Source: a virus
Taxonomy: Duplodnaviria > Caudoviricetes
Reading direction: 5' to 3' (one strand)
Length of the DNA stretch: 64,000 nucleotides
IMG/VR virus record: IMGVR_UViG_3300013121_000024
Span: 1-64,000 of that record
Positions 25,132-59,683 of the stretch are shown here, piece by piece (position 1 is the first letter of the stretch; every line of letters starts with the position of its first letter). The notes beneath the pieces are model-generated. The model was not told the origin of the DNA. It made no database searches and was given only the letters and a program-made list of their open reading frames with translations. A program made the translations under genes and the position numbers.

Positions 25132-28100
25132 TGGCAGGAAAAACAGATATATTAGCAGGAACCTTAGGTAAAAAATTAGACAAAATTACGGGCGTCGATA
25201 ATATTAGAACCCGTCTAAAAAACTTGAGTGAATCTTCCAATATTTCTAAGACTTTCAAAAAAATATCACAACTGGATAATACCCAATATTCACGACTGAC
25301 CGGGGAAACAGGGGATTTAACTGGCATCACCGCTGAAAAACTTACCAAGAGTGTTGATAATCTTGGTAATAGAGTAATCGTGGCTGTAGAAAAAATAAAC
25401 TCTAGATTAAATGAAATAGATTCAGGTATTCGTGTATTGAATACAAAGGTCGAACGTCTTGAAAAGTCGGCCGAAAAAATAGATAAAAGAGTGAAGGATC
25501 TTGAAAACAAGGACGAGGATAAACATGACAAATGGAAGTTGGCCTCGGCTGGTGGATTTTCTGTTCTTGGTAAAAACGACCATTCCCCGAATTCATTATT
25601 AGGTGCACTGTCTAACATTCTAGGTGTTGCTTCAATTGGTAAATTAGGTGCCGATACATTAGGTAAATTAGGAGCTCTTTCTGGTATAAGTTCTGGTATA
25701 GGTTCTGGTGCAGGTGGATTAGCTGGTCTGGCTAGAATGGCTCCTCTTGTCCTGAAAACCGGCGGCGCTATTGCTGGTGGTACAGCCATTGGTTTAACGG
25801 GTTATGGAATTAAAAAATGGTTAGAAGGTGAAGATTCACTCAAAGGTGTACAAGGTCCTTTCAAATCCGGTCCTGGATTAGGTCCACAAATCCAATCGGA
25901 GATGGACAAAAGGCCCCCTGGTTTTGAAAATCCCATATACAGATGGTTGAGAGAGAATACACCATCTTTGAATCCATTCGGTGATCCAATGAGGGATCGG
26001 CCTGAATTTCAACCAGACTTCCAGAGACAGTCTTATAGCGGAGGTGGAGGTGGTTATAGTGGATCCGCAATACCGGGTTCTCCAGGAAGCCAGACACACA
26101 ACCAAATGGGTGAACTATCAAATTACGTACCAAATGGAAACTCCACAATCCTGGCGGATAAACAAGGAAAAGTAAATCCACAGGCTTTTTATGATTCTAT
26201 GGTAATCAAATTTTCAAATTCTGCCTTGAAGGGATATGTACCAAAAGATGGAGAAAAATATGGTATAAAAACCGGTTCACCACAAGAATGGGCCAGATTT
26301 GCAACAATGCTCATCAAACAAGAATCTGGATTTAACATTAATTCCACCGGAGATAATGGAAATTCGTATGGTTTGGTGCAGATGAAGGCCGGAGAGTATG
26401 GATTGAAAACGCGCGAAGACGTTATGGATCCAAATAAATCCTCGGATGCGTTAATTAAACAATTTGAGAAATATATTATACCATCAGAACATATAGGAGG
26501 CACTGGTAGCGGTGCTGGAACATATCATGGCTGGCGTGGAGCCGCGGCGTATTTTGGTCCTATTCGCCGTGATGAAATTTTTAAACACTCAAATTGGTTC
26601 AAAAACACTATTAACACAGGCAATGCAGTACAATACTCTGGTGCAGTACCCTATGTTAACCTGGAAAGACCTCCATCCGAATCAGATATTAAGATGGGAG
26701 TTGGTGTAGCCGGAAAGGGGGCTTCATTCCAATTTAATCCTACTCATGAGGGATCGGCCGCGGCGGTTAGGGAAATCAATAAACAAGGTGCCTCGGCAAT
26801 TGCTTATTATCAAGGAGGAGGATTGGCAGCGGCAGGAGAAAAGGAAATTAACCTCAGTTCGGCCGAACAAAGAGAAAAGATTACACAACTTTCCAGTCAA
26901 TACAGGCTGGCAGGCTATTCTGGATTCAAGATTGACAATTTACACCGTTTACAAACAACGGACCAATTAAAGAAAGTCTTTGATGCGGTTCATCCGGAAA
27001 TGAAAATTGTTGCTAATGGCAATCCAGTGTTGTTACAAAGATTCCTGGAAGAAAATCCTGAGTATAAAAGTCGTATTCAGTCGGAGGCCGAGAACCTTGC
27101 ATCAGGTCAAAATCGAGAGAACGTGGAAGCCGTGAAAGCCCTTGGTAAAATGGGGGTTAAAACTAATGTATTTGAATTTTCAAGTGCAAGTGATCCAAAA
27201 CACAGTGCCACCAAAGAACAGGCGGCCGCACTGGCCAAAGAACTTCCTGGTGCTACGGTATCCCATTACAACCAAGTAGAATTGCCAGGAAGAGGGGAAA
27301 GAGGTGGAATTTCTGGTACAGAAGGCCGAAGTGTGTTCTCGTCTGAATATGGATATTCTTCCGAAACAAGATCGTTTGATAAATTAGGTTTAAATAAGTC
27401 CGGAAAATATTTTACTTCTGGTTTGATGTATGATGAAAGTAAAACTCCAGGAGGCCGAGATGCTACAGGAGTAGGTGTGCCTAGTGCACCTAAAGCCATT
27501 TTGGATAAAGCACGTGAAATAGCCAGTCTGGAAGGTCCACAGGCAGTTTATAATTATATGAGAAATCAAGGCTATCCAAAGGATGGAGCTTGGTGTGGTC
27601 AATTTGCGGCAACTGTAGTTAAATCTGCCGGATTTCAGCCACCAAAAGGAGCAGCGGTTGCATCCAATTGGAGAAATTTTGGTACTCAGGTAGAATTTCC
27701 TGAACCGGGGGACATCGCGGTAAGAAAGCGTTCACGGTATGGTGGATATACATCTACCGGTGATACTGGAAGTCATGTTACAATTGTATCCGAAATAAAC
27801 AATAATAAAGTTAAATTGTTGGGGGGTAACCAAGGTGGTGCAATGCCAAATATTTATTCCAGGAACATTGGAGAATTTGAATATTTTCGTGCTGGTGGTG
27901 TAGCATCTAAACAGAATTCTGAAAATACTAGATTTAAAGAATGGTTGCAGTCTGTGTATCCGGAAACTTCTTCCAAACCTGAAGGTCCGCTTACGGCTCG
28001 ACTGCCCGGCACCCAAATATCCTCCGAATCACCCCAGTTTAAACTACCGGAACTTGGTGTTGTCGGAACTGCAACACCGGATAAACAAACCGATTATAGA

Positions 28101-32940: not shown

Positions 32941-33396
32941 TCATCGTTTTTGCAACTTCTGAAACTCAAATTCCGCCCAGAGCGCTTTACGGGTAGAGTC
33001 CGAAAGGCTTAATATAGCAGTTTTCGGGTCCACGTCAAGTAACATAGCAACATAATTGGCCCTTGTTATTGGGTGGTCAATCTTGGAGTTGATGAAAAAG
33101 TCTCGTATTGTTTCGCCCTTTGTTACCGGATATCTATTGACAGGTCCGGCCACGGTTTTTTCCACATTCTTGGTTTCAGTGACGGAAACTGGTGCTTCTG
33201 TACTGGTAATAGGAACTTCCTTTTTCCAATCAAGAGATATTATAATTATTAGAAACACTAATATACCAGATATTCCGCCTATTTTTCCCATTCTTTTCAA
33301 TCGACCCTTTGGATCAAAAGGATTGCTGGCCGCGGAAGATACTTTTGGCGTTTTGGTTGTTGGTTTTTTGGGTTTTGTGGTTTTAGTACGTTCCAT
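32941..33396 (-). CDS. Single-pass membrane protein
   Basis: Basic N-terminus followed by hydrophobic segment GISGILVFLIIIISL. Confidence 0.55.
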   Translation of the reverse strand: MERTKTTKPKKPTTKTPKVSSAASNPFDPKGRLKRMGKIGGISGILVFLIIIISLDWKKEVPITSTEAPVSVTETKNVEKTVAGPVNRYPVTKGETIRDFFINSKIDHPITRANYVAMLLDVDPKTAILSLSDSTRKALWAEFEFQKLQKR

Positions 33397-33423
33397 TTAA
33401 ATTTTTTTCCTCTATATAAACGC

Positions 33424-33795
33424 AAAAAGGAGGGTTTTCTGTTGCCAGGTAAACCCTCCAAACCCCGTTCGATCAGGCAGCTAGTGCCATATCTCCCATG
33501 TGCCAGTTATCATTGGCATCTATGATGTGCGCCTTTAACGACGGTCGCCTTACGGATAACTCCACGTTTTCTTTTGTTTACTGTCGATCCTATTTCGCCC
33601 CCATCAGGGATACATTAATGACAAATTTTCACCTGCTTTGTCTTTCAACCACCCACAGGCACCTTTATCGCAGACTTGGGCAATATTTCTATTGCTGGGA
33701 TGAACACGGCATAATTAATGTATCCTTGGTGAAGGCGCCGGGTATCGCACCCGGGTCCAGCAAAACTACTTGAACACGCTTCAACGTTATCAGTC
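33424..33795 (-). ncRNA. ssrA: Permuted (two-piece) tmRNA
   Basis: Minus strand: acceptor piece ending ...GACCCGGGTGCGATACCCGGCGCCTTCACCA (3' end 33727), an intervening segment, then the coding piece starting GGGGGCGAAATAGGATCGAC (33602) with a G3.U70 pair. Tag ORF ANDNWHMGDMALAA* at 33517-33473, then a terminal hairpin and U-run. 5' end approximate. Confidence 0.92.
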
Positions 33796-33809
33796 TCTTA
33801 TTTAGTATT

Positions 33810-34097
33810 TTACTCCTCGCCACCATCTTCCGGTAACATACCAAGAGCATGTTTATAGACTTCCAAGATGGAATCGAATTCTACAACTTCAATATGTGAT
33901 TTTTTTCGTATCTTAATTAGTTCTTTCATGGCTTTGGTGTTGAATCCGGCACTTTTAGCTTCAGAAAATTTATCCCGAATGTCACTAGATATTCCGGCTT
34001 TGTCCTCCATCAACCTCTCAATTTGTTCAATATATTGCCTAAGTTGATTTTGTGTTGATTTTTGCAATGCGACGATTTCGGTGGCTTCTGTTGTCAT
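33810..34097 (-). CDS. gapR: GapR (DUF2312) nucleoid-associated protein
   Basis: QLRQYIE.IERL.E.K..I..DIRD.F.EAKS.GF..K.M..LI.IRK...ILE.Y..ALGM matches the GapR consensus. Confidence 0.9.
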   Translation of the reverse strand: MTTEATEIVALQKSTQNQLRQYIEQIERLMEDKAGISSDIRDKFSEAKSAGFNTKAMKELIKIRKKSHIEVVEFDSILEVYKHALGMLPEDGGEE

Positions 34098-57186: not shown

Positions 57187-57261
57187 TGGAGCTCTAGTCC
57201 GGTTACGATCCGGAGTCTCCTCCTTACCAAGGAGGTATCTTAGCCATTGGACCACAAGAGC
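57187..57261 (-). tRNA. tRNA-Thr(GGT)
   Basis: Cloverleaf, anticodon arm CCTCC-TTGGTAA-GGAGG, encoded CCA. Confidence 0.85.
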
Positions 57262-57263
57262 AA

Positions 57264-57337
57264 TGGAACGGAATCCGGGTACTGCCCCCGAGCTTGAAGT
57301 GTGGCACACTCCCGTACTGCTATTATACTAATTCCGC
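57264..57337 (-). tRNA. tRNA-Gly(GCC)
   Basis: GCGGAAT acceptor, loop GTGCCAC, CCA. Atypical T loop. Confidence 0.75.
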
Positions 57338-57338
57338 A

Positions 57339-57468: not shown

Positions 57469-57544
57469 TGGCGGCGCTAGGGGGACTCGAACCCCCATGA
57501 TCCCTTACGGTATCATGTTTAGGAGACATGGCCGATATAGCGCT
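57469..57544 (-). tRNA. D-arm-less tRNA-like gene, anticodon CCT (Arg AGG)
   Basis: AGCGCTA-TATCGGC-CATGT-CTCCTAA-ACATG-long variable region-GGGGG TTCGAGT CCCCC-TAGCGCC-G-CCA. Confidence 0.7.
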
Positions 57545-57561
57545 ATAACTAAAAATCAATA

Positions 57562-57639
57562 TGGCGCTCCTGACAGGACTCGAACCTGTATCTATCCATT
57601 ATGCACCAGTCGCTTAGAAGGCGCGGCCAATACAGGAGC
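57562..57639 (-). tRNA. D-arm-less tRNA-like gene, anticodon TCT (Arg AGA)
   Basis: GCTCCTG-TATTGGC-CGCGC-CTTCTAA-GCG..-long variable region-ACAGG TTCGAGT CCTGT-CAGGAGC-G-CCA. Confidence 0.7.
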
Positions 57640-57643
57640 AAAT

Positions 57644-57735
57644 TGGTAGGCGTCCAGGGATTTGAACCCTGCCGTGAACGGTAATCTGCCGCTAAAGAGT
57701 TTATAAATCTCTCCTGCGCACCAGCGCCGACGCCC
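57644..57735 (-). tRNA. Atypical long-variable-arm tRNA, anticodon TAT (Ile AUA)
   Basis: GGGCGTC acceptor, mini D arm GCGC-TGGT-GCGC, loop TTTATAA, variable stem AGCGG/CCGTT, T arm, CCA. Confidence 0.7.
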
Positions 57736-57744
57736 ATGTTCTAT

Positions 57745-58921: not shown

Positions 58922-58999
58922 TGGTACCTACAATGGGATTTGAACCCATACTATTTCCCCCCTCAAAGGAACGTCTCCTACCAGTTGGACTATGTAGGC
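58922..58999 (-). tRNA. tRNA-Leu(GAG), short variable loop
   Basis: TTCCT-TTGAGGG-GGGAA, GGTTCAAATCC, ACCA. Confidence 0.8.
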
Positions 59000-59007
59000 A
59001 TTTATTT

Positions 59008-59085
59008 TGGTGTCCGGAGAGGGATTCGAACCCTCAGATTCTCTTGCTTCTGAGGCAAGCGACTTTGCCGTTTGTCCACCCGGAC
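59008..59085 (-). tRNA. tRNA-Leu(CAG), short variable loop
   Basis: CTTGC-CTCAGAA-GCAAG, GGTTCGAATCC, ACCA. Confidence 0.85.
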
Positions 59086-59595: not shown

Positions 59596-59683
59596 TGGAG
59601 GATCCGGTCGGACTCGAACCGACGGTGAGCTTTCGCTACCAGATTAAGAGTCTGGTGCCCTCGCCACTAGGCTAGACGGATCC
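59596..59683 (-). tRNA. tRNA-Lys(CTT) with long variable arm
   Basis: CCAGA-CTCTTAA-TCTGG, variable hairpin AGC-GAAA-GCT, T arm, CCA. Confidence 0.85.

What the first reader, a model, noticed from the sequence alone, without database searches (positions are those of the whole stretch)
57469..57639. Pair of D-arm-less tRNA-like genes for AGG and AGA, with a D-loop-like motif inside the variable region
Seen: both adjacent genes have a near-complete acceptor stem, G discriminator + CCA, a canonical TTCGAGT T arm and a 7-nt anticodon loop (CT-CCT-AA, CT-TCT-AA). In both, the D arm is replaced by the same 7-nt linker (TATCGGC / TATTGGC). The long variable region carries a GG(A) motif (GTAAGGGAT / ATAATGGATAG) resembling a D loop. 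The shared architecture in two divergent copies argues against random decay. Inference: a rearranged tRNA fold in which the variable region supplies the G18G19/A20 contacts. Alternatively, the G73 and long arm could confer Ser identity on AGR codons. Either way they could supply AGA/AGG decoding in a GC-rich host or evade anticodon nucleases.
Basis: partly seen in the sequence, partly recalled or inferred. Interest (0 to 1): 0.75.

Follow-up and report, generated by a model that had tools for sequence, protein, structure and literature searches.

The report
Phage arginine tRNAs with rewired D-arm
The two odd genes are conserved phage arginine tRNAs (for AGA and AGG) that are not cloverleaves: one strand of the D stem and the whole D loop lie after the anticodon arm. 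Many phages share this layout, gene finders miss it, and I found no paper describing it.

Summary
Observation confirmed, on the minus strand: A = 57544..57469 (anticodon CCU) and B = 57639..57562 (UCU). Each has a 7-bp acceptor stem, G73 and CCA, a standard T arm and a 7-nt anticodon loop, but no D hairpin. ARAGORN misses both, and Rfam's tRNA model barely scores A and misses B.

They are not decay products. I collected more than 60 distinct relatives from Streptomyces, Pseudomonas, Alishewanella and Felix O1 phages and about 70 IMG/VR contigs. Their acceptor, T and anticodon stems covary.

The "linker" is not idle. Three of its bases pair with the three bases that precede the D-loop-like motif, after the anticodon arm. 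This helix occurs in at least 8 complementary sequence versions. So the D stem is rebuilt around the anticodon arm, and U8, A14, the 15-48 pair and G18G19 are all kept.

Evidence for real tRNA function:
- A20 accompanies Arg anticodons and U20 accompanies Ile anticodons.
- With one exception, rewired anticodons fill gaps in each phage's canonical tRNA set.
- AGA and AGG make up 56% of this phage's Arg codons.

No expression or charging data exist. The serine alternative is rejected. This scan had already met the class on other phage DNA (Felix O1, T4-like phages). I confirmed the Felix O1 copy and add the CCU, ACG, UCG and Ile members.

The parts
57562..57639 (-). Gene B: rewired tRNA-Arg(UCU), 78 nt including the encoded CCA (57564-57562)
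   Evidence: Scores 89.6 bits with model R1. Belongs to the UCU-main family of 21 distinct sequences.
57469..57544 (-). Gene A: rewired tRNA-Arg(CCU), 76 nt including the encoded CCA (57471-57469)
   Evidence: Scores 67.5 bits with R1. Belongs to the CCU family with L026, L046, L049, L052, L053 and L057.
57627..57629 (-). B: linker bases U11 G12 G13, the 5' strand of the rebuilt D stem. It is equivalent to canonical 23-25 and runs on into the anticodon stem.
   Evidence: Pairs 11-38 (UA 20, CG 7) and 12-37 (GC 27) in alignment A1. In A2 the same pairs are UA/CG/GC and GC/CG/UA with no unpaired cell.
57602..57605 (-). B: U35 G36 C37 A38, the 3' strand of the rebuilt D stem (equivalent to canonical 10-12). 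G36 is unpaired.
57590..57601 (-). B: U39 followed by the D-loop equivalent AAUGGAUAG (A14, A15, G18 G19, A20), then A and U. The final U is the position-48 equivalent, just 5' of the T stem.
   Evidence: A14 is invariant in 37 of 37 sequences. The 15/48 equivalents are A-U 39, G-C 10, G-G 9. GGA is kept in all but one Arg-type member.
57606..57626 (-). B: anticodon arm. C14 C15 and GCGC pair with GCG(A)C(U)GG, with two single-base bulges. Loop CUUCUAA; anticodon UCU at 57618-57616.
   Evidence: The pair N1-M5 covaries as C-G, G-C, A-U and G.U with M4 bulged.
57532..57534 (-). A: linker bases C11 G12 G13, the 5' strand of the rebuilt D stem
   Evidence: Complementary to CCG at 57510-57508. The same pairing is present in all CCU-family members.
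57508..57510 (-). A: C35 C36 G37, the 3' strand of the rebuilt D stem
57497..57507 (-). A: U38 followed by the D-loop equivalent AAGGGAUC, then A and U (the position-48 equivalent)
57514..57530 (-). A: regular 5-bp anticodon stem and loop CUCCUAA. Anticodon CCU at 57523-57521.
57573..57589 (-). B: T arm, 5-bp stem and loop UUCGAGU
   Evidence: The T-stem pairs covary, for example 53-67 as CG 11, UA 9, GC 4, AU 2, GU 1.
57480..57496 (-). A: T arm, 5-bp stem and loop UUCGAGU

Best explanation
A and B are working phage tRNA-Arg genes (CCU and UCU) of a widespread, phage-borne class with a non-cloverleaf chain order. I infer the following mechanism.

Processing: they are transcribed within the minus-strand tRNA cluster and processed like their neighbours.

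Fold: after U8 and A9 the chain goes straight into what is normally the 3' strand of the D stem and on into the anticodon arm. The other D-stem strand and the D loop come only after the anticodon arm, then two or three bases, then the T arm. In canonical numbering, segment 10-21 has been moved into the variable region. The 3-bp helix closes around the anticodon arm and stacks on it as a D stem would. The relocated loop supplies A14 (to U8), R15 (to Y48) and G18G19 (to the T loop), so an L shape can still form.

Charging and decoding: host ArgRS charges them through A20, C35, U36 and A/G73, and they read AGA and AGG.

Shown here: the conservation, the secondary structure, the covariation of tertiary and identity positions, the way these anticodons complement the canonical tRNA sets, and the codon demand.

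Inferred only: folding into an L shape, processing, charging and decoding.
For: 1. Family. The UCU core pattern is found in phages of Streptomyces, Alishewanella and Pseudomonas and in 19 IMG/VR contigs; every hit has UCU even when the anticodon was left free. The CCU family was found.

2. Stems. The acceptor, T and anticodon stems covary: 96.8% of cells are paired against 72% in shuffles and 31-50% with slid partners.

3. Rebuilt D stem.
- Pair 11-38 is UA 20 / CG 7, and pair 12-37 is GC 27.
- In 37 sequences these two pairs are UA 22/CG 13/GC 2 and GC 31/CG 4/UA 2, with none unpaired.
- Further versions are AGC/GCU, CCC/GGG, CGA/UCG, ACC/GGU and CUC/GAG.
- Seven versions give 18 of 21 pairs, against at most 16 in 1854 mismatched assignments.

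4. Rival hairpin rejected. A local D-like hairpin needs columns 52 and 53, and these covary with the T stem instead.

5. Tertiary equivalents. U8 is invariant in alignment A1 and A14 in the 37 sequences of A2. The 15/48 equivalents are A-U 39, G-C 10, G-G 9, with no G-U or A-C.

6. Identity. In the CCCC/GGG subtype (29 distinct sequences), UCU and CCU members have A after the Gs of the D-loop motif. GAU and UAU members mostly have GGU (one GGC) and never A there.

7. Complementation. In L018, L080, L057, L046, L052, L053, L021, L024, LilMartin and this genome, rewired anticodons are the ones missing from the canonical set. The one duplicate is the LilMartin GAU member. Alishewanella phage Slicko01 has no other annotated tRNA-Arg in the tRNA-cluster stretch examined, 17-22 kb.

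8. Demand. AGA is 37% and AGG 19% of Arg codons in 111 long ORFs.

9. CCA. It is encoded here, as in the neighbouring tRNAs, and is absent in the Streptomyces phages, as in the canonical tRNA-Gly next to the copy there.

10. Separation. The class model scores members at 53 bits or more and canonical tRNAs at 35 or less.
Against: - There is no RNA, processing or aminoacylation evidence.
- Single-sequence folding does not recover the structure. The model sits 1.1 kcal/mol (A) and 3.1 kcal/mol (B) above the minimum free energy.
- RNAalifold predicts only the acceptor stem, a 3-bp anticodon stem and the T arm.
- Alignment A2 was fitted to the model, so its pair counts lean towards that structure.
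- Within each subtype the D-stem bases hardly vary, so the covariation comes from roughly 8 subtype events.
- B's anticodon stem (3 pairs, bulge, 1 pair, bulge) is unlike any known decoding tRNA.
- A has an A1.C72 mismatch.
- One UCU member has GGU where A20 is expected.
- LilMartin's rewired GAU duplicates a canonical tRNA-Ile(GAU).
- The genome record is only about 83% complete, so a canonical Arg(UCU) or Arg(CCU) gene could lie in the missing part.
Confidence: 0.7

Rival explanations
1. They are tRNA mimics that are not used for decoding. They might act as decoys or sponges for a host anticodon nuclease, a modification enzyme or ArgRS, or as processing signals in the tRNA operon. On this view the rewired core exists to bind a partner and not the ribosome.
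For: B's anticodon stem is irregular and bulged. The core is extremely conserved across phages of unrelated hosts. The Streptomyces phages that carry the class also encode RNA ligase, polynucleotide kinase and a Ro-like protein. This genome holds several other tRNA-like oddities.
Against: - Their anticodons complement the canonical sets instead of duplicating them.
- Base 20 tracks the anticodon as aaRS identity rules predict.
- The class spans six anticodons of two amino acids, which is hard to explain by one nuclease target.
- AGA and AGG are the phage's main Arg codons and it has no other phage tRNA for them.
Confidence: 0.15
2. The fold is D-armless with a local hairpin after the anticodon arm: a D-like or variable arm whose loop touches the T loop. 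The 5' linker stays single-stranded.
For: In the Streptomyces phage copies GCAU and AUGC could form a 4-bp hairpin around the GG loop; helix 3 is 93% paired. In A the minimum-free-energy fold makes a hairpin with a GUAA loop.
Against: - Two of the four pairs use bases that covary with the T stem (52-68, 53-67).
- There is no compensatory change within the supposed hairpin, and it shows uncompensated mismatches in the window's B, L003, L017, L022 and L057.
- A's hairpin is not conserved in the CCU family.
- The linker covaries with the distal strand.
Confidence: 0.08
3. They are charged with serine through G73 and a long extra arm, so AGR codons would be read as Ser.
For: The window's two copies both have G73, and there is a long stretch between the anticodon and T arms.
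Against: - The discriminator is A in about half of the relatives.
- No variable-arm helix is supported.
- The Arg determinants A20, C35 and U36 are conserved, and base 20 switches to U with Ile anticodons.
- It is established that bacterial SerRS needs a helical long variable arm.
Confidence: 0.03
4. They are decaying tRNA pseudogenes left over in a tRNA cluster.
For: Gene finders reject them. A has a mismatch at 1-72. The genome has other degenerate tRNA-like pieces.
Against: The same layout is present in more than 60 distinct sequences from phages of Actinomycetota and Gammaproteobacteria hosts. They show compensatory changes in every stem and invariant tertiary bases.
Confidence: 0.02

Closest known systems
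Canonical class I tRNA-Arg(UCU/CCU) of bacteria and phages (Rfam RF00005; for example E. coli argU, phage T4 tRNA-Arg, and the canonical Arg(UCU) genes in L080, L057 and L046)
   Same: 7-bp acceptor stem, discriminator A or G, CCA, T arm with UUCGANU, anticodon loop CU-NCU-AA, U8, A14, G18G19, A20, and location in phage tRNA clusters.
   Different: There is no D hairpin between positions 9 and 26. One D-stem strand and the D loop follow the anticodon arm, so the order is acceptor, anticodon arm, D loop, T arm. The secondary structure is a three-way junction and not a four-way one. The UCU subtype also has bulges in its anticodon stem.
Metazoan mitochondrial D-armless tRNAs, for example mt-tRNA-Ser(AGY) (PMC4013460, PMC9427863)
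   Same: No D hairpin at the usual place; a short connector follows the acceptor stem; some read AGN codons.
   Different: In the mitochondrial tRNAs the D arm is truly lost, the variable region is short, the G18G19 to T-loop contacts are gone, and the partner proteins co-evolved. Here the D stem and D loop are kept but rewired, the T loop is canonical, and the setting is bacterial translation.
Synthetic D-arm-less 'mini HisT' accepted by the E. coli translation machinery (PMC11551756)
   Same: It shows that a bacterial aaRS, EF-Tu and the ribosome can use a tRNA without a normal D arm.
   Different: It is artificial and lacks D elements altogether. That paper states that all known bacterial tRNAs are cloverleaves and that natural armless tRNAs exist only in mitochondria.
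allo-tRNAs and other class II tRNAs with long variable arms (PMC5389517)
   Same: Extra sequence lies between the anticodon and T arms, and they are unusual tRNAs found in metagenomes.
   Different: Those keep a normal D arm and have a helical variable arm and an 8/4 or 9/3 acceptor-T branch. Here the branch is 7/5, there is no variable helix and no D hairpin.
Circularly permuted tRNA genes of Cyanidioschyzon merolae (recalled from my own knowledge, not checked here)
   Same: The gene order of tRNA modules differs from that of the mature cloverleaf.
   Different: There the mature tRNA is canonical after circularisation and cutting. The order found here cannot be turned into the canonical order by any circular permutation.

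Membership tests
tRNA (Rfam RF00005, canonical cloverleaf) | 7-bp acceptor stem, discriminator, 3' CCA | tested here: met
   All 7 acceptor pairs covary. A has an A1.C72 mismatch.
tRNA (Rfam RF00005, canonical cloverleaf) | T arm: 5-bp stem and 7-nt loop U-U-C-R-A-N-N | tested here: met
   (100% of cells paired, 4 of 5 pairs with double changes).
tRNA (Rfam RF00005, canonical cloverleaf) | Anticodon arm: regular 5-bp stem and 7-nt loop with U33 and R37 | tested here: inconclusive
   The loop is met in both genes. The stem is regular in A, but in B it is 3 bp, a bulge, 1 bp, a bulge.
tRNA (Rfam RF00005, canonical cloverleaf) | D hairpin between positions 9 and 26 | tested here: not met
   The Rfam alignment of A deletes 15 model positions. 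ARAGORN makes no call. Only 6 nt lie between A9 and the anticodon stem.
tRNA (Rfam RF00005, canonical cloverleaf) | Score at or above the curated cut-off (29 bits) | tested here: inconclusive
   A scores 30.9 bits. B is not reported even at E <= 10.
tRNA (Rfam RF00005, canonical cloverleaf) | Aminoacylation and decoding | not testable with these tools
   No RNA run holds the stretch. Only indirect evidence is available.
tRNA-Arg identity (E. coli-type ArgRS; identity rules reviewed in PMC9976931) | A20, C35, U36 or G36, A or G at 73 | tested here: met
   One UCU relative has U where A20 is expected.
Mitochondrial-type D-armless tRNA | D arm replaced by an unpaired connector; short variable loop; loss of D-loop to T-loop contacts | tested here: not met
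   The connector pairs with a distal strand. The region before the T arm is 10-16 nt and holds A14, R15 and G18G19.
Class II / allo-tRNA (Ser, Leu, Tyr, Sec type) | Helical long variable arm together with a normal D arm | tested here: not met
   The candidate helix conflicts with the T-stem covariation. There is no D hairpin.
Rewired-D-arm phage tRNA class (defined here; models R1 and R2) | U8 A9, a 3-bp helix between the linker and the strand 3' of the anticodon arm, then U-A14-R15..GG.. and a short joint to the T stem | tested here: met
   A scores 67.5 bits and B 89.6 bits with R1, against 33 or less for this genome's canonical tRNAs. With R2 the gap between members and canonical tRNAs is clean.

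The most novel reading that the evidence does not exclude
These are aminoacylated, ribosome-active tRNAs whose L-shaped core is built with a different chain connectivity: segment 10-21 is transposed into the variable region. That would make them the first natural non-cloverleaf tRNAs outside mitochondria. The class has diversified in phages across Arg (UCU, CCU, ACG, UCG) and Ile (GAU, UAU), possibly because the rewiring lets phage tRNAs escape host or phage enzymes that target tRNA.
Probability: 0.6. Interest if true: 0.9.

Novelty: new variant of a known kind. Interest (0 to 1): 0.85.

Why it matters
The cloverleaf is treated as universal for bacterial-type translation. A 2024 paper states that all known bacterial tRNAs are cloverleaves and that natural armless tRNAs occur only in mitochondria (PMC11551756).

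A widespread natural class that keeps the tertiary core but rewires the chain would matter in four ways:
- It would show how much topological freedom RNase P, ArgRS/IleRS, EF-Tu and the ribosome tolerate.
- It would explain 'missing' AGA tRNAs in well-studied phages. The Felix O1 genome paper expected one (PMC3185647), and one is there.
- It would expose a blind spot in tRNAscan-SE, ARAGORN and Rfam annotation of phage genomes.
- It would offer new scaffolds for orthogonal tRNAs.

Tried and rejected
- RNA evidence: no RNA holder is listed for the stretch; only activated-sludge DNA runs hold it.
- Laying contigs of four partial holders on the stretch gave no informative variants.
- Minimum-free-energy folds and RNAalifold do not recover the long-range helix, so they could neither support nor refute it.
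- The local D-like hairpin was tested and rejected beyond 2 bp.
- Circular permutation or intron removal as a route to a canonical tRNA was rejected by module order: acceptor, anticodon arm, D, T cannot be rotated into acceptor, D, anticodon arm, T.
- BLAST of a CCU-type member against named phages found no match.
- The genome-contig scan for the UCU core found only 3 MAG contigs among 185,579 species genomes. I did not check whether these are phage contigs.
- Pfam scans of 10 neighbouring ORFs found nothing related to tRNA.
- Six literature searches and two reviews gave no description of this layout.
- Complex prediction, structure prediction and the protein searches were not used because they are not relevant to an RNA gene.

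Full report
**What is there.** The window is part of a 150,379-bp, 39% GC viral contig from activated sludge. It has a long minus-strand tRNA cluster and a two-piece alpha-type tmRNA.
- The finding covers two adjacent minus-strand genes: A (57544..57469, anticodon CCU) and B (57639..57562, anticodon UCU).
- ARAGORN calls neither gene.
- Rfam's tRNA model gives A 30.9 bits (cut-off 29), with the D arm deleted from the alignment. It gives B nothing even at E <= 10.

**Not chance, not decay.**
- B has 76-84% identical, mostly unannotated relatives inside the tRNA clusters of Streptomyces phages. Examples are Karp, LilMartin, Bmoc, and Mildred21 where it is labelled 'tRNA-OTHER'.
- B also has relatives in Alishewanella phage Slicko01 (labelled tRNA-Ser) and Pseudomonas phage vB_PsaM_M1.
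- A pattern of the conserved core with the anticodon left free found 19 IMG/VR contigs, and all have UCU.
- A pattern for A's 5' half recovered a CCU family.
- In 27 distinct sequences the acceptor, T and anticodon stems covary strongly. 96.8% of cells are paired, against 72% in shuffles and 31-50% with slid partners.

**The structure.** I compared two models.
- Model X is a local D-like hairpin after the anticodon arm. It needs two bases that covary perfectly with the T stem instead, for example 53-67 as CG 11, UA 9, GC 4, AU 2, GU 1. It also has uncompensated mismatches. I reject it beyond 2 bp.
- Model Y pairs linker bases 11-13 with the three bases just before the invariant U-A that opens the D-loop-like motif. 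Those bases lie after the anticodon arm.
- In A1, pair 11-38 is U-A in all 20 UCU members and C-G in all 7 CCU members. Pair 12-37 is always G-C.
- Covariance model R1, built on model Y, then found members with other anticodons and other helix sequences in the same phage clusters:
  - AGC/GCU (ACG)
  - CCC/GGG (GAU, UAU)
  - CGA/UCG (UCU)
  - CU/AG (UCG)
  - ACC/GGU (ACG)
  - CUC/GAG (Felix O1, UCU)
- In the 37-sequence alignment A2 the two central pairs take three standard pair types each, with no unpaired cell. A2 is fitted to the model, which is a caveat.
- A test that does not depend on the alignment, over seven helix versions, gives 18 of 21 pairs. The maximum over 1854 mismatched assignments is 16.
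- Thermodynamic prediction does not find this helix. The case rests on comparative evidence.

**Reading in canonical numbering (inference).**
- After U8 and A9 the chain enters the strand equivalent to 22-25 and runs on through 26 into the anticodon stem.
- After position 43 and two or three bases comes the strand equivalent to 10-13. Then come A14, R15, Y16, (U17), G18, G19, A20 and so on, then two or three bases, then the T stem.
- So segment 10-21 has been moved into the variable region.
- In yeast tRNA-Phe the bases that become chain neighbours already sit together in base-triple layers: 9 with 12-23, 45 with 10-25, 46 with 13-22, and A21 with U8-A14 (established knowledge). The new joints 9 to 22, 45 to 10 and 21 to 46 are therefore plausible without changing the L shape.
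- Consistent with this, U8 is invariant in alignment A1 and A14 in the 37 sequences of A2.
- The base after A14 and the base just before the T stem behave like the 15-48 pair. In 61 sequences they are A-U 39, G-C 10, G-G 9, with three odd cases and no G-U or A-C.
- B's subtype has two conserved single-base bulges in the anticodon stem, with pair N1-M5 covarying around them. This is unexplained.

**Function.** There are no expression or charging data. Five indirect lines point to real tRNAs.
- Identity elements follow the anticodon. In the large CCCC/GGG subtype (38 contigs, 29 distinct sequences) UCU and CCU members have A after the Gs of the D-loop motif. GAU and UAU members mostly have GGU (one GGC) and never A there. 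Nearly all other Arg-type members keep A20.
- Rewired anticodons fill the holes in canonical sets:

| Phage or locus | Canonical Arg tRNAs | Rewired tRNAs |
|---|---|---|
| LilMartin | cct, tcg, acg | UCU (plus GAU) |
| L018 | ccg, acg, cct | UCU |
| L080 | tct, ccg | CCU, ACG |
| L057 | tct, acg, ccg | CCU |
| L053 | acg (also canonical Ile gat) | CCU, UCU, UAU |
| This genome | tcg, acg | UCU, CCU |

  The only duplicate is LilMartin's GAU, which repeats its canonical tRNA-Ile(GAU).
- AGA and AGG are 37% and 19% of this phage's Arg codons.
- CCA is encoded where the neighbouring tRNAs encode it. It is absent in the Streptomyces phages, as in the canonical tRNA-Gly next to the copy there.
- The genes sit a few bases from normal tRNAs. 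A promoter-like and a terminator-like site bracket the block.

The serine alternative fails: there is no variable-arm helix, the discriminator is A or G, and the Arg determinants are kept.

**Distribution and novelty.**
- The UCU core occurs in only 3 MAG contigs among 185,579 prokaryotic species genomes, so the class is essentially phage-borne.
- Model R2 separates members (53 bits or more) from canonical tRNAs (35 or less).
- I found no paper describing the layout. PMC11551756 states that all known bacterial tRNAs are cloverleaves.
- Notes from this scan show that other agents met the same class in Felix O1 and T4-like phages and read it the same way. That is not independent support.
- I checked two of their claims. 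The Felix O1 paper did expect an AGA tRNA. Felix O1 holds an unannotated member at 25951-26029, scoring 55.3 bits against 30.5 or less for its other tRNAs.
- New here: the CCU family to which A belongs, the ACG, UCG and Ile members, the link between base 20 and the anticodon, and the tally of how rewired anticodons complement canonical sets.

**Limits.**
- The covariation in the rebuilt stem comes from about eight subtype events, not from many independent changes.
- The genome record is about 83% complete.
- Folding, charging and decoding are inferred, not shown.

Noticed in passing
window 57644-57736 (-): A third odd tRNA lies directly upstream of B. It is 93 nt with an acceptor stem and CCA, a 4-bp D stem with a 4-nt loop, a 9-nt anticodon loop around UAU (Ile, AUA), and a long region before the T arm. 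Rfam scores it as tRNA-Sec at 27.4 bits, below the cut-off. AUA is 39% of the phage's Ile codons. In other phages UAU is carried by a rewired tRNA.
   Followed up: partly
window 57259-57338 (-): An unannotated tRNA-like element between tRNA-Arg(tcg) and tRNA-Thr. It has a 7-8 bp acceptor stem, U8 A9, a discriminator and CCA, and it folds as a cloverleaf. However, its anticodon arm is a 7-bp stem with a 3-nt loop, and its T loop is not canonical.
   Followed up: partly
window 58922-58999 and 59008-59085 (-): tRNA-Leu(gag) and tRNA-Leu(cag) are 78 nt and have short variable loops. They lack the long extra arm of bacterial leucine tRNAs.
   Followed up: no
G000:C1:72617-72681, 75795-75867, 76408-76483 (-), outside the window: Three more tRNA-like elements that ARAGORN misses. 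One is a 65-nt acceptor and T minihelix with a small hairpin and CCA. One has the loop CUGCUAA (GCU, Ser AGY) and a D-loop-like motif after the anticodon arm, but a poor acceptor stem. One is a weak hit.
   Followed up: partly
window 33382-33877 (-): A two-piece (permuted) alpha-type tmRNA gene with tag ANDNWHMGDMALAA. It hints at an alphaproteobacterial host; this was not tested.
   Followed up: no
window 59596-59683 (-): tRNA-Lys(ctt) is 88 nt and has an insertion of about 11 nt in the variable region.
   Followed up: no
L153 (Felix O1, NC_005282) 25951-26029 (+): The rewired tRNA-Arg(UCU) is unannotated. Its 3' end is overlapped by the annotated start of HNH endonuclease ORF45 (26003-26395), so that start codon may be miscalled.
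   Followed up: no
L076 1501-1578 (LilMartin 73463-73540): A rewired tRNA-Ile(GAU) lies between a nucleotidyltransferase gene and an FtsK-like gene, away from the main cluster. It duplicates a canonical tRNA-Ile(gat).
   Followed up: no
L023 8210-8284 (+): ARAGORN calls a tRNA with anticodon CUA (amber suppressor, labelled 'Pyl') in an IMG/VR phage contig that also carries three rewired Arg tRNAs.
   Followed up: no
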